A stretch of 64,000 nucleotides of DNA from a virus (taxonomy: Duplodnaviria > Heunggongvirae > Uroviricota > Caudoviricetes): IMG/VR virus record IMGVR_UViG_3300023371_004649; one strand, given 5' to 3'. Shown in pieces: positions 39,780 through 42,844 of the stretch. The notes under the pieces are model-generated. The model made no database searches and had not been told where the DNA came from. It saw only the letters and a list, made by a program, of their open reading frames with translations. Numbering within the stretch: the stretch's first letter is position 1; each line of letters starts with the position of its first letter. A program made the position numbers and the translations under genes.

Positions 39780-40700
39780 TTTACATATTATATTGATTTT
39801 TATAAAAAACAAATAATAAAAACATTTAAAATATTATCTAACTTGCTGGTAACTTGCACGCAGCAGAAATAATAAACATATATTTATTATTTCTATTAAA
39901 AAAAATAAGAGACTCCACAAATCAGCAATGCATTAGCATTCCCAACTCATGAAATCCCTCATTTCGGCTAGTCTCCGAAATACTCCAGGCTACTATCTGC
40001 GCAAACAGTGGTCTGAAGTGGCCCTTATGCGGAACCTCTCTTATCTCTATTTCTCCCCAAAATAGAGACCACACTTAACCAAAATCAGTGACAGCTGACT
40101 TTGTTGCCCGTTAAGTTGGCACTTTTCTATTCGCCAGAGCTACCCAACTCTTTAAAACGATGCGAAAAGCACAAATCCATAAGAGAATCAGTCTCTCAAC
40201 TGCAGCTCATATTCTGACTTCCGAGCTGTTTATTTATTTTTTCAGATTTATGGGTAATACAAGTAATAAATCCTACACCATACATACCAGATATTTAATT
40301 TGTACTAAAAAACGGCGTTGCCACCGAATTCCCTCGAAATTTATTATATCTAATATCTACTTCACCTTTTACGAGAACCGTGATGGTCCGAGTTCTCAAC
40401 GCCAACTACCGTGGTCGAGTTTAAAAGTGATGTCTGCTGTTTACGGCATGAAACAACCAAAGTTCCCCATTTTTCGATATCTCTATGATATCATAATATG
40501 TCCTGGTAACATCGAGCAACATCCGCGAAACGCTGTCAACATTCCGCTCAATCGCCTTCTAGGCTGACAGAAGCCACATTTTATTAATATATTAAGTCCT
40601 CTGTGCTTTCCTACCATGGAAATTCCTAACACATCTTTTGAGGATAATATATTATAGAATTTTGATTATCTTATAATAACAAAAAACGTATATTTTAAAA
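39780..40700. ncRNA. about 0.9 kb GC-enriched non-coding block downstream of the Ro60-like gene: candidate structured ncRNA(s), possibly Y-RNA-like; strand unresolved
   Basis: No convincing ORF; the only one (40160..40567) has no RBS or promoter. About 42% GC versus about 20% in other intergenic DNA. Local hairpins (tttcgg-ctagtct-ccgaaa; GGCGTTG...CAACGCC enclosing GAGAAC-cgtgaTGGTCCGA-GTTCTC). TGGTCCGAG at about 40384-40392 resembles the conserved Ro-binding strand of Y RNAs. Confidence 0.3.
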
Positions 40701-40730
40701 AGAAAAACCTCTCCAATTTCTCGGAGAGGT
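40693..40730 (-). terminator. rho-independent terminator of the Ro60-like gene
   Basis: cctctcc-aatttctc-ggagagg hairpin followed by a T-run on the minus strand. Confidence 0.5.
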
Positions 40731-40741
40731 TAATTCTTTAA

Positions 40742-42409
40742 TTACTGGCCGTTGCGAGCATCAACGTCATCCCAGAACTTGTTCATTGCGTCAGCATAAA
40801 CAAGCTCCTTACCAGTCCAACCGTAAAGTACGGTAGTACGGTAACCATTTTCAGGAACCAGTACATCATCGTAACCAGCGGTCTGGATGCTGTAGACATT
40901 GACCTTAGGATTGACCTTCTTACGATAGGTATCAATTAGCTTGGCAACATCGATGTATCGACCATGACGAGCCGCATAATCCTTGTAGTCACCAGGGTTG
41001 ATACCATAGAGACCACCGTGACCTGCCTGCTGGTCAGAGTAGATAAAGATGTTATCCCAATGCTCCTTGTTCTTGATGGCCTTATCAAAGAACAGCCAAA
41101 TACCATTCTCGGTAGAACCACCAACACGATACTTGCTATCGTTGGATACATCCTTGGTCTGGCTCAGAACGCCGTTGCGACCGTTGACAGGAATCTCGAA
41201 AAGCTTGTCGCCAAACTTACCGACATAACCATCATCAGAGTTGCGAGCGGTAATCACAGAGCTGAGGTTATCAATCTCTGCGATAGTTACAGAGCCATAC
41301 TCAGAAGGAATAGCACCCCAAGCAGAGCCAGAGTTATCGCTCAGACACATGGTCTTACCCTTAAGGGTAGGCATGTTGGCACAAGCGATATCCATGCACT
41401 CTTCAAGAGCAGTGATAATCATAGACTTATGATTAACCTTAGCTCCCTCAATGGCGTTGATAGCAGCGTAGTAACGGAAAGGGAACTGCTTACCCTTAAG
41501 AACGCCGTTCTTAAGGTCAGTTAGAACCTTCTTACAACGCTCAACGTCATCAATCTCGGTGAAAATACCACGAAGATTGCGAAGCAGAGCCATATGACCC
41601 ATCTTCACAGTATCGAGGATTTCAGCCCAAGACTTACCAGAAGCACGAAGAGCCTCCCAAGTCTTATCACTATCTTCCATCTCAATAGTGCCGTTCTTCA
41701 TCAGCTGGTTGATACGCTCGTTATTCGCATGGCAAATACGAACAGTGTCAATCAGACCAATGCCCTTATTACGATACTTATAGATATCGTAATCACTCAT
41801 ACGCTCAATGCGCTTAGCCCAAGAACGCTTCAGAATGTTAGGAACAGAAGCCTTAGAGCCCTTACGATACAGGTAATAAGTCAGCTGAGAAGCAGGTTCA
41901 TCAGCTCGAGACATTACCATATCGTTAACCTGAGCAAAAACGCCAGGATTAGCGGCAGTAAACTTCTCGCGGTCAGGATGCATAGCCGCACGGACCATGA
42001 TTACCTGAGGATTGAGACGCATATAGAAATCCTTACGAAGAGTTACAGCCCAATCAAGGGTTGCACCAAAATCGTAGGAAAGTGCAGCATCAATAGCCTG
42101 CTCCATGATGTCAGAGGTCTTCTTTCCCTCTTCACCCTTACCCCAAATAGCGTAAGGAGCAAACAAAGAATCGAGACGGAAAACTCCATCATGGATACGA
42201 GCTTCAGCAAACTCACCTGCACGGTAGTACTGAGGCTCACCGAAGATAGAAGATGCAGAAATCATCTTCAGAGTCTCCAAGGGATTAAGGGTATAAGAAA
42301 TACCACCCATATAGTTAGCGTGACCATTAGCAGGTACAGCATTGACCTCCTTGGCACGGTTATCAGTTACCTTCTTAGACATCTTAGACATATTCATTTC
42401 TCCTTTCAA
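40742..42409 (-). CDS. rsr: Ro60-like TROVE-domain plus vWA (MIDAS) RNA-binding protein (Rsr-like)
   Basis: 555 aa. The N-terminal region resembles the TROVE domain (..FGEPQYY..). The C-terminal vWA domain has a MIDAS motif LSDNSGSA (DxSxS). GC-richer than its surroundings. Confidence 0.55.
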   Translation of the reverse strand: MKGEMNMSKMSKKVTDNRAKEVNAVPANGHANYMGGISYTLNPLETLKMISASSIFGEPQYYRAGEFAEARIHDGVFRLDSLFAPYAIWGKGEEGKKTSDIMEQAIDAALSYDFGATLDWAVTLRKDFYMRLNPQVIMVRAAMHPDREKFTAANPGVFAQVNDMVMSRADEPASQLTYYLYRKGSKASVPNILKRSWAKRIERMSDYDIYKYRNKGIGLIDTVRICHANNERINQLMKNGTIEMEDSDKTWEALRASGKSWAEILDTVKMGHMALLRNLRGIFTEIDDVERCKKVLTDLKNGVLKGKQFPFRYYAAINAIEGAKVNHKSMIITALEECMDIACANMPTLKGKTMCLSDNSGSAWGAIPSEYGSVTIAEIDNLSSVITARNSDDGYVGKFGDKLFEIPVNGRNGVLSQTKDVSNDSKYRVGGSTENGIWLFFDKAIKNKEHWDNIFIYSDQQAGHGGLYGINPGDYKDYAARHGRYIDVAKLIDTYRKKVNPKVNVYSIQTAGYDDVLVPENGYRTTVLYGWTGKELVYADAMNKFWDDVDARNGQ

Positions 42410-42572
42410 GATAAAAAATTAGCGATTAGTGATACACTAACCGCATTGACAAAAGCAGAGTATGAATCTCTGCTAAAACTTCAATAAATTGGTTAGTCGT
42501 GAAAATTAATTATGACAAAGTTCTTTTAATTCAAATATAAGATGAAGTCATAATTCCGCTACAACTAAATTA

Positions 42573-42601
42573 ATTATAACATATTCTGAGACTTTTGTCA
42601 A
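42573..42601 (-). promoter_or_regulatory. promoter copy 1 (TTGACA-N17-TATAAT, minus strand) about 170 nt upstream of rsr
   Basis: Reverse complement of tgtcaaaagtctcagaatatgttataatta. Confidence 0.45.
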
Positions 42602-42737
42602 GTCTTTTTTTGAAAAATCACCGTGAATTTTAGTAACGATTTTGTTTGTTCTTTCTTAAGGCAGAAAGAGAAAAATTTTTAATTTCAAGTTAAAATTCAT
42701 TTTCGATGAAATCGTTATCTCCGCTACGGCTGTATAT

Positions 42738-42766
42738 ATAATAACATATTATCAGAAATTCGTCAA
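42738..42766 (-). promoter_or_regulatory. promoter copy 2 (TTGACG-N17-TATTAT, minus strand); part of a duplicated promoter-leader unit of about 160 bp
   Basis: Segments 42540-42610 and 42700-42780 are recognisably similar (tccgctaca...ataacatatt...gtcaag...tttttg). Confidence 0.4.
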
Positions 42767-42844
42767 GAGTTTTTGAAGAAAATTTTTTAGAAAAATGTAT
42801 AACAAAAAAGCAAACCCTTTTATTAAAAGAGTTTGCTAGATGTT

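What the first reader, a model, noticed from the sequence alone, without database searches (positions are those of the whole stretch)
39780..42790. Ro60/TROVE-vWA gene with a 0.95 kb GC-enriched non-coding block downstream: candidate Y-RNA-like structured RNA locus
The gene 40742..42409 (minus) has the TROVE-like N-terminus and a vWA MIDAS motif (LSDNSGSA), as in Ro60/Rsr. In bacteria, and in some phages, rsr is followed by genes for Y RNAs with tRNA-like modules, which tether Rsr to RNA-decay machinery. Directly downstream here, beyond the rsr terminator, lies a roughly 920-nt block (39780-40700). It has no RBS-preceded ORF and about twice the GC content of every other intergenic region in the window. 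It contains nested helices (GGCGUUG...CAACGCC around GAGAAC-[cgugaUGGUCCGA]-GUUCUC), and UGGUCCGAG echoes the conserved Ro-binding strand of Y RNAs. A block this long and this GC-rich in such an AT-rich genome is very unlikely to be spacer DNA. It could hold several Y-like RNAs or another large structured RNA.
Basis: partly seen in the sequence, partly recalled or inferred. Interest (0 to 1): 0.8.

Follow-up and report, generated by a model that had tools for sequence, protein, structure and literature searches.

The report
Ro60 gene, Y RNAs, unknown large RNA

Summary
The protein claim holds. Gene 40742-42391(-) encodes a Ro60/Rsr homolog: it matches Pfam TROVE above the cut-off, its DNSGS MIDAS motif is invariant in 28 homologs, and its AlphaFold model matches only Ro60 structures.

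The Y-RNA claim is right in spirit but placed on the wrong side. Two Y-like RNAs lie upstream on the rsr strand: Y1 at 42732-42613 and Y2 at 42568-42493. Each has a near-consensus promoter. They belong to a family of 23+ RNAs next to rsr with strong covariation. Relatives carry YrlA-type tRNA-like inserts; the window copies do not.

The downstream block is neither spacer nor decayed DNA. It has a conserved TATAAT and runs about 748 nt (40645-39898, minus strand) to a 26-bp G·U-rich hairpin followed by U8. Five full homologs from sister strains are 726-760 nt long and fall into two diverged subtypes. No ORF is conserved. Compensatory changes are in clear excess, and the structure signal is stronger on the rsr strand.

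The block is not Y-like. It gives no Rfam hit at E<=10 and no hit to my Y-RNA model. The "UGGUCCGAG" echo sits on the wrong strand, in a hairpin loop.

The function of the block and any link to Rsr are unproven, and it was found in one clade only.

The parts
42738..42766 (-). Promoter of Y1 (TTGACG, 17-nt spacer, TATTAT, with TG)
   Evidence: Promoter scan scored 10 of 12. Conserved in L013 and L032.
42613..42732 (-). Y1, a Y-like RNA of about 120 nt. It has a closing stem, a conserved asymmetric internal loop (5' AGCGG, 3' AAAAUUC), a second stem with one bulge, a variable AU-rich apical part, and then a U5 run.
   Evidence: Found by motif plus stem search. Scores 41.2 bits, E 7e-8, against CM R1. 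The MFE fold gives the same architecture.
42573..42601 (-). Promoter of Y2 (TTGACA, 17-nt spacer, TATAAT, with TG)
   Evidence: Promoter scan scored 12 of 12.
42493..42568 (-). Y2, the core of a Y-like RNA (76 nt). It is nearly invariant in five sister strains.
   Evidence: Scores 54 bits, E 1e-11, against CM R1. MFE fold z = -3.2. Strain comparison.
42451..42474 (-). T1 hairpin AGCAGAG/CUCUGCU followed by a short U run. This is the likely 3' end of the Y2 primary transcript.
   Evidence: Read from the sequence and present in the fold.
42411..42444 (-). T2 terminator-like hairpin followed by a U run, immediately before the rsr ribosome-binding site. No promoter lies between T2 and the gene.
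   Evidence: Terminator scan and fold. An equivalent hairpin is present in relatives.
40742..42391 (-). rsr, encoding a Ro60/Rsr homolog of 549 aa: a HEAT-repeat TROVE ring plus a vWA domain with a DNSGS MIDAS motif.
40697..40731 (-). Intrinsic terminator of rsr
   Evidence: Terminator scan. The stem changes in a compensatory way in L013, L032 and L040.
40651..40656 (-). TATAAT -10 box of the large RNA. It is invariant in all six homologs, as is an upstream GTTAT(A)TAT element.
   Evidence: Alignments.
39898..40645 (-). Large structured non-coding RNA of about 748 nt. The start is inferred as about 7 nt after the -10 box.
   Evidence: Homologs measure 726-760 nt. Covariation and strand asymmetry are shown. 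No ORF is conserved. No Rfam family matches.
40373..40397 (-). Its loop ..GACCAUC.. is conserved in type A.
   Evidence: 4 compensatory pairs among the window, L032 and L039.
40307..40326 (-). Internal terminator-like hairpin followed by U6. It is present only in type A and may yield a shorter isoform of about 340 nt.
   Evidence: Terminator scan. Conserved with compensatory change in L032 and L039, and absent from type B.
39898..39963 (-). 3' terminator of the large RNA: a 26-bp G·U-rich hairpin followed by U8.
   Evidence: Fold. Conserved in all five homologs with compensatory changes.

Best explanation
This is an Rsr (bacterial Ro60) locus of an uncultured low-GC gut or rumen Firmicute. It has three RNA genes on the rsr strand.

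(1) Two small Y RNAs, Y1 and Y2, lie upstream of rsr, each with its own strong promoter. Each folds into a closing stem, a conserved asymmetric internal loop (5' G(U/A)AGCGG, 3' AUUC(A/U)C) and a second stem. This matches the Ro-binding module of bacterial Y RNAs. They lack the tRNA-like domain of YrlA, so they resemble YrlB, Yrn or phage Yrl RNAs.

By analogy with Deinococcus, Salmonella and phage phiLo, they would bind the Rsr ring and tether it to an exoribonuclease such as PNPase. This step is inferred, not shown.

rsr has no promoter of its own. It is most likely expressed by read-through of the Y-RNA terminators (inferred from the sequence).

(2) The block downstream of rsr is a separate gene for a structured non-coding RNA of about 750 nt. 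It has its own -10 box and a strong intrinsic terminator. It belongs to no described family.

Its function is unknown. My working guess, at low confidence, is that it acts with or is handled by the Rsr/Y-RNA machinery, because it stays next to rsr while the gene beyond it is swapped.
For: **Protein**
- Pfam TROVE at 31.5 bits against a cut-off of 23.
- phmmer hit to phage phiLo Ro60 (9KOP/9L5Y), E 2.6e-7, aligned through the MIDAS motif.
- AlphaFold model with pLDDT 81 and pTM 0.81.
- The 13 best Foldseek matches in the PDB are all Ro60: 9KOP 5.6e-16, 2NVO 3.2e-12, 1YVP 1.5e-11.

**Y RNAs**
- 23 distinct instances, all on the rsr strand and next to rsr.
- On the trimmed core alignment, 90.3% of cells are paired against 61.2% in shuffles (0 of 500 shuffles reach it). 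17 of 18 pairs show double changes. The covariation score is 0.84 against 0.26, and slid controls stay at or below 45%.
- The U:A to A:U swap links GUAGCGG..AUUCAC with GAAGCGG..AUUCUC.
- CM R1 finds 30 hits at E<=0.01 in 203 kb, all on the rsr strand. They include copies in L037 that were not used to build the model.
- The copies in L009 hit Rfam YrlA at 32.8 and 30.1 bits, E 2.7e-5 and 1.7e-4.
- Published precedent exists: Y RNAs within 4 kb of rsr on the same strand with a GNCGAAN0-1G motif (PMC4201824), and two Yrl RNAs upstream of the phage Ro60 gene (PMC12135203).

**Large RNA**
- Homologs occur downstream of rsr in sister strains, measuring 759, 760, 757, 726 and 758 nt from TATAAT to the U run.
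- Conservation is patchy. Between the window and L032, 40247-40149 is 92-96% identical, while fourfold-degenerate sites in rsr are 81% identical.
- No ORF is conserved.
- RNAalifold predicts 149 pairs, 65 of them with double changes, against 32.9±4.0 in shuffles (0 of 500).
- Column-shuffle z is -13.5 on the sense strand and -6.2 on the antisense strand.
- Folding types A and B separately gives 56 shared pairs, against a mean of 4 and a maximum of 26 in shifted controls.
- Within type A there are 34 compensatory pairs, against 1-6 in slid controls.
- The downstream gene differs between strains (Mbeg1-like or sulfatase), independently of RNA type.
Against: - There is no expression data and no binding data.
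- The window Y RNAs have CGUA or UGUA where the published motif has CGAA, and they do not reach any Rfam model.
- The Y alignment was assembled with a stem filter of at least 5 bp, and one bulged base was removed from 10 sequences. This favours pairing.
- For the large RNA there are only five full sequences, in two clades. The consensus structure was derived from the same alignment on which it was scored. The structure conservation index (SCI) is low at 0.33, and the A-versus-B alignment is uncertain in the 3' half.
- The block as a whole is about as diverged as fourfold sites (81%), so the constraint is local.
- The large RNA was not found next to rsr in relatives with 85% or lower protein identity, nor anywhere else in 250 kb of held sequence. 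The link to Rsr could therefore be plain synteny.
- The -35 region of its promoter is non-canonical.
Confidence: 0.65

Rival explanations
1. One reading: the downstream block encodes one or several Y-like RNAs with Ro-binding stems and tRNA-like modules.
For: Y RNAs can lie downstream of rsr. In the viral contig L037, three Y-like RNAs follow rsr. The block is structured and lies on the rsr strand.
Against: There is no YrlA, Y_RNA or tRNA match at E<=10 in the block or in its four homologs. CM R1 with filters off gives no hit in the block, and the motif-plus-stem search finds only the two upstream copies. UGGUCCGAG is on the antisense strand, lies in a loop and is not conserved.
Confidence: 0.04
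2. The block holds two or more independent small RNAs in tandem rather than one large RNA. An example would be RNA-1 at about 40645-40307 and RNA-2 at about 40300-39898.
For: A conserved hairpin followed by U6 lies at 40326-40307 in all three type A sequences. The most conserved stretch, 40296-40100, starts just after it. Most of the helices supported in both subtypes are local hairpins.
Against: No recognisable promoter follows the internal terminator. Type B lacks this terminator yet keeps the same total length. Type A folds include long-range pairs such as 40470-40459 with 40038-40027, but these are invariant and so say nothing either way.
Confidence: 0.2
3. The block is non-functional DNA, such as a decayed gene or a remnant of a mobile element, with chance hairpins.
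For: Its distribution is narrow. Overall divergence is close to the neutral rate. IS605/TnpB fragments occur around rsr loci in relatives.
Against: The -10 box and the terminator are conserved, and length is kept within 726-760 nt across about 63% identity. Compensatory changes are in excess and the structure is strand-specific. tblastn finds no remnant of a protein gene. There is no similarity to the IS ends, and the block is not repeated in the window.
Confidence: 0.07
4. The block is a long cis-regulatory leader, riboswitch-like, for the downstream gene, or a 3' UTR of rsr.
For: It ends in a terminator just upstream of the next gene, and it sits directly after rsr.
Against: The downstream gene differs between strains (Mbeg1-like or sulfatase) and does not track RNA type. 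L032 has a 120-nt insertion between the terminator and the gene. rsr has its own conserved terminator, and the block has its own conserved -10 box.
Confidence: 0.04

Closest known systems
Bacterial Y RNAs: YrlA and YrlB of Salmonella and Mycobacterium, Yrn1 and Yrn2 of Deinococcus (Chen et al. 2014, PMC4201824; Rfam RF02553)
   Same: They are encoded next to rsr on the same strand, often two per locus. The 5' and 3' ends pair into a stem that carries a conserved CGAA-like motif at an internal loop. Relatives of the window's RNAs (L007, L008, L009, L037) carry T-arm and D-arm inserts and hit RF02553 at sub-threshold scores.
   Different: The window's Y1 and Y2 have no tRNA-like domain. The motif reads CCGUAGCGG or UUGUAGCGG instead of GNCGAAN0-1G. 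No Rfam score at E<=10. Binding to Rsr is untested.
Thermus phage phiLo Ro60 with Yrl1 and Yrl2 (PMC12135203; PDB 9KOP, 9L5Y)
   Same: This is the closest solved structure to the window protein. It also has two Y-like RNAs upstream of the Ro60 gene, each with a stem-bulge-stem layout and a CGAA motif.
   Different: The proteins are only 19% identical. One is from a phage and the other from a bacterial chromosome. No large RNA partner is described for the phage system.
Orphan large structured bacterial RNAs: ROOL, GOLLD, OLE, raiA
   Same: These are RNAs of several hundred nucleotides with many helices and conserved islands between variable hairpins. They occur in Firmicutes, including rumen and gut organisms, and their biochemical function is unknown.
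   Different: The block matches none of their covariance models, even at E<=10. Its distribution is much narrower, with six loci in one clade. It sits next to rsr rather than next to tRNAs, in prophages or beside oapA. Multi-way junctions and tertiary motifs have not been established here.

Membership tests
Ro60/Rsr (TROVE + vWA) | HEAT-repeat TROVE ring | tested here: met
   Pfam PF05731 at 31.5 bits against a cut-off of 23. The AlphaFold model is helical repeat over residues 92-338. The 13 best Foldseek matches in the PDB are all Ro60, with TM-scores of 0.53-0.73.
Ro60/Rsr (TROVE + vWA) | C-terminal vWA domain with a MIDAS DxSxS motif | tested here: met
   D352-N-S-G-S356 is invariant in 28 homologs. 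It aligns to DVSGS of phage Ro60. Residues 343-548 form an alpha/beta fold in the model.
Ro60/Rsr (TROVE + vWA) | Binds Y RNA and misfolded RNA | not testable with these tools
   Requires RIP/CLIP or EMSA.
Y RNA (general) | Encoded close to the Ro60 gene on the same strand | tested here: met
   Y1 and Y2 lie 220 and 100 nt upstream of rsr on the minus strand. All 30 CM hits in the loci are on the rsr strand.
Y RNA (general) | 5' and 3' ends pair into a stem interrupted by a conserved loop or bulge that carries the Ro-binding motif (GGUCCGA in animals, GNCGAAN0-1G in bacteria) | tested here: inconclusive
   The architecture is met, with strong covariation. The motif is CGAAGCGG in 8 relatives, of which L010c matches GNCGAAG exactly. 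In the window it is CCGUAGCGG (Y1, one mismatch) and UUGUAGCGG (Y2, two mismatches).
Y RNA (general) | Bound by Ro60 and tethers an effector such as PNPase | not testable with these tools
   Inferred from D. radiodurans, Salmonella and phage phiLo (PMC4201824, PMC12135203).
YrlA (Rfam RF02553) | tRNA-like domain with T-arm and D-arm | tested here: not met
   No RF02553 or tRNA hit in 39700-42900 at E<=10. The apical parts of Y1 and Y2 are AU-rich with no GGUUCGA motif. Relatives L008, L009 and L037 do carry the domain.
Y RNA / YrlA, applied to the downstream block | Match to the Rfam Y_RNA or YrlA models, or to the locus-specific Y model R1 | tested here: not met
   Searches give no hit in the block or in its homologs.
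Known large or catalytic RNAs (ROOL, GOLLD, OLE, raiA, HEARO, group I/II introns, RNase P, tmRNA, 6S) | Match to the family covariance model | tested here: not met
   cmscan of the block at E<=10 and of four homologous loci at E<=5 against 4227 Rfam families found nothing in the block.

The most novel reading that the evidence does not exclude
The RNA of about 750 nt downstream of rsr is the founding member of a new class of large structured RNA that is a dedicated partner of the Rsr/Y-RNA machine. It could be a scaffold, a decoy or a privileged substrate. If so, it would be the first large RNA component of a bacterial Ro60 system.
Probability: 0.2. Interest if true: 0.8.

Novelty: new variant of a known kind. 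Interest (0 to 1): 0.6.

Why it matters
Ro60 is a conserved RNA-quality-control ring and a lupus autoantigen, and gut commensal orthologs are of medical interest. Outside a few model species, its RNA partners in bacteria are poorly known.

This locus adds a large, covariation-supported family of Y RNAs from gut and rumen Firmicutes. The family shows that the tRNA-like domain is optional within one lineage.

It also reveals an unclassified structured RNA gene of about 750 nt that travels with rsr. If that RNA works with Rsr, it gives a direct handle on what bacterial Ro60 acts upon. Even if it does not, new large structured RNAs are rare and have often turned out to have unusual biochemistry.

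Tried and rejected
- **Rfam.** Gathering threshold on the whole window found only four tRNAs. E<=10 on 39700-42900 gave only chance hits. E<=5 on four homologous loci found nothing in the block.
- **BLAST of the block.** No match against phages or plasmids, and the block is not repeated in the window.
- **Pseudogene test.** tblastn of all ORFs from 14 related loci against the block found nothing. No conserved small ORF was found.
- **Metagenome scan.** I used the island pattern AAAAANNNGGNAACTTTNNTNNTTTCATG. It returned 4 chance hits. In hindsight the pattern was too strict, because L039 and L040 have AAGTTT. The viral scan returned nothing.
- **Covariance model of the 5' domain of the large RNA (R2).** It found only its own six training sequences in 250 kb.
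- **Possible pairing between the Y1 apical loop and the large RNA.** Rejected, because Y1 loop variants do not track large-RNA types.
- **Attenuator idea.** The Y2 3' strand could pair with the 5' arm of the hairpin before rsr. The pairing is significant only in the window and L014 lineages, not in eight others.
- **Same-strain contigs.** 24 contigs are 100% identical over this region and so carry no information.
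Full report
**The observation**

The minus-strand ORF 40742..42409 exists. The likely start is ATG 42391, 8 nt after AGGAG, which gives 549 aa. This is also the form held in public collections.

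The protein matches Pfam TROVE above the curated cut-off, 31.5 against 23 bits. It belongs to a large family in gut and rumen Clostridia, Lachnospiraceae, Ruminococcus and Erysipelotrichaceae MAGs. The MIDAS motif D352-N-S-G-S356 is invariant in 28 homologs.

By sequence, the nearest solved structure is the Ro60 of Thermus phage phiLo (9KOP/9L5Y, E 2.6e-7). An AlphaFold model (pLDDT 81, pTM 0.81) has as its 13 best PDB matches only Ro60 proteins: phiLo 5.6e-16, D. radiodurans Rsr 3.2e-12, Xenopus and human Ro60 about 1e-11. The protein half of the finding is confirmed.

The block's GC enrichment is overstated. GC is 35.5% for 39780-40700 and 39.5% for the RNA core. Other gene-free gaps range from 19.5% to 41%, and the window as a whole is 34%.

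**Where the Y RNAs really are**

Upstream of rsr, on the same strand, the repeat and promoter scans show two tandem units. Each unit has a near-consensus sigma-70 promoter followed by ..G(U)AGCGG... In the 14 to 40 related loci I fetched, the same unit recurs next to rsr.

A motif-plus-stem search gave 23 distinct instances. All are on the rsr strand, and none lies elsewhere in the window. Their common plan has these parts:

- a closing stem A;
- an asymmetric internal loop, with 5' AGCGG and 3' NNNAUUC;
- a stem B of 9-11 bp, which in 10 cases carries a 1-nt bulge;
- a conserved UU(N)CAUC;
- a variable apical part.

On the trimmed core alignment, 90.3% of cells are paired against 61.2% in shuffles (0 of 500 shuffles reach it). 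17 of 18 pairs have double changes, and slid controls stay at or below 45%. There are two caveats. I required a stem A of at least 5 bp, and I removed one bulged base from 10 sequences.

A covariance model, R1, finds 30 hits at E<=0.01 in 203 kb, all on the rsr strand. These include Y1 (41.2 bits), Y2 (54 bits) and copies in the viral contig L037 that were not used in training.

Copies in L007, L008, L009 and L037 carry T-arm and D-arm inserts. Those of L009 hit Rfam YrlA at sub-threshold scores, 32.8 and 30.1 bits. The Rfam YrlA consensus has the same stem, 5-nt loop and stem layout at its base.

Published work describes bacterial Y RNAs as lying within 4 kb of rsr on the same strand, with a GNCGAAN0-1G motif near the 5' end (PMC4201824). 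The phage phiLo Ro60 gene has two Yrl RNAs upstream with a CGAA motif (PMC12135203).

The window's Y1 (42732-42613) and Y2 (42568-42493) therefore look like minimal Y RNAs without the tRNA-like domain. Their motif is a variant, CGUA or UGUA instead of CGAA. Their own MFE folds reproduce the architecture.

No promoter lies between the last hairpin (42444-42422 plus its U run) and the rsr ribosome-binding site. rsr is therefore probably expressed by read-through. This is an inference.

**The downstream block**

At first the block looked unconserved. Same-strain contigs are 100% identical. The nearest relatives then in hand (L013, L014) diverge right after the rsr terminator.

Members of the 90% protein cluster gave longer contigs from sister strains. 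All of them have a gene-free stretch of 0.9-1.1 kb after rsr. L032 and L039 align to the window block at 76-81% identity (type A). L029-31, L040 and the partial L013 form a second type (B). Type B members are 63-69% identical to each other and share islands with type A.

From an invariant TATAAT to the terminal U run, the lengths are 759, 760, 757, 726 and 758 nt.

Conservation is patchy. Between the window and L032, 40247-40149 is 92-96% identical and 40098-40051 is 50% identical, while fourfold-degenerate sites in rsr are 81% identical.

No ORF is conserved. The 135-aa antisense ORF is broken in L032 and L039.

The gene beyond the block differs between strains. It is Mbeg1-like in the window and L032, and a sulfatase in L029, L039 and L040. 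This difference does not follow RNA type, so the block travels with rsr and is not a leader for the downstream gene.

**Structure of the block**

- The minus strand of the window folds with z = -6.1, against -3.4 for the plus strand.
- It ends in a 26-bp hairpin with many G·U pairs, followed by U8.
- On the five-sequence alignment, RNAalifold gives 149 pairs. 65 of them have double changes, against 32.9±4.0 in shuffles (0 of 500). 86.5% of cells are paired, against 41-48% when partners are slid. This structure was derived from the same alignment, so the test is partly circular.
- Column shuffling gives z = -13.5 on the rsr strand and -6.2 on the other strand.
- Folding types A and B separately recovers the same helices at the same columns: 56 shared pairs, against a mean of 4 and a maximum of 26 in shifted controls.
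- Within type A, 34 pairs change in a compensatory way, against 1-6 in slid controls.
The hairpin at 40273-40244 has 3.
A local hairpin followed by U6 (40326-40307) is conserved instead, but only in type A, so a shorter isoform is possible.

**What the block is not**

- No Rfam family matches at E<=10 in the window, or at E<=5 in four homologous loci. This covers Y_RNA, YrlA, tRNA, ROOL, GOLLD, OLE, raiA, HEARO, introns and RNase P.
- R1 does not hit it.
- It has no BLAST match in phages or plasmids.
- It shows no protein remnant.
- UGGUCCGAG lies on the antisense strand, and on the RNA strand it is loop sequence.
- A model of its 5' domain finds only the six known copies in 250 kb.
- rsr loci with 85% or lower protein identity lack it.
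- I found no paper describing a large RNA beside rsr.

**Verdict**

The locus is a genuine Rsr/Y-RNA module whose Y RNAs sit upstream of rsr. Downstream sits an undescribed gene for a structured RNA of about 750 nt.

The evidence for the Rsr identity is strong. It is good for the Y RNAs. It is moderate for the large RNA being a functional structured transcript, because there are only five sequences and no expression data. It is weak for any functional tie between the large RNA and Rsr.

Noticed in passing
window 42411-42505 (minus strand): Two hairpins in tandem (T1, T2) separate Y2 from the rsr ribosome-binding site, and no promoter lies between them and the gene. The 3' strand of Y2 (ACUAACC) is complementary to the 5' arm of T2 (GGUUAGU). 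This suggests an attenuator that could couple Y-RNA folding to rsr expression. The complementarity is significant only in the window (p about 0.04) and in L014 (p<0.003), not in eight more distant loci.
   Followed up: partly
window 40742-42391: The rsr coding sequence is 46% GC in a window of 34% GC. This could reflect horizontal origin or strong codon bias. I did not test it.
   Followed up: no
L001 2540-2985, L002 1-400, L003 300-780, L005 2560-2985: In Ruminococcus-type loci, a gene for an HD-domain protein (MIYTxMTKKALKICFEAHKEQKDKTGLPYVFHPFHLAEQM...) sits between the Y RNA and rsr. It may be a conserved third partner of the module.
   Followed up: no
L024 340-470 (also L025, L026): An extra hairpin RNA of about 95 nt with its own consensus promoter (GAGTTCTGAGGG...CTCTTAGAACT, containing GGTTCGTGACC) lies upstream of the Y RNA. 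It is not matched by R1.
   Followed up: no
L025 284-700; L014 2540-2957; L032 7270-7390: IS605/TnpB ends with GC-rich, omega-RNA-like sequence flank rsr loci in relatives. The same end motif (CCCACTTAGCCCTACGTGCTTGAAGTGGGG) appears as a 120-nt insert right after the large-RNA terminator in L032.
   Followed up: partly
L037 1790-2260 (IMG/VR viral contig): Three Y-like RNAs lie downstream of rsr. Two of them have T-arm-like GGTTCGAxCC modules. A tRNA-like sequence follows them, by my reading of the sequence; I ran no tRNA scan on this locus.
   Followed up: partly
window 42640-42700 and homologs: The apical part of Y1 exists in at least three unrelated variants among strains whose rsr genes are 92-95% identical. 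These variants do not track the type (A or B) of the large RNA, which points to mosaic recombination across the locus.
   Followed up: partly
window 30685-31104 and 36610-36685: Four tRNA genes (Leu-TAG, Leu-TAA, Met-CAT, Lys-TTT) lie a few kb downstream, among many short ORFs with no family match.
   Followed up: no
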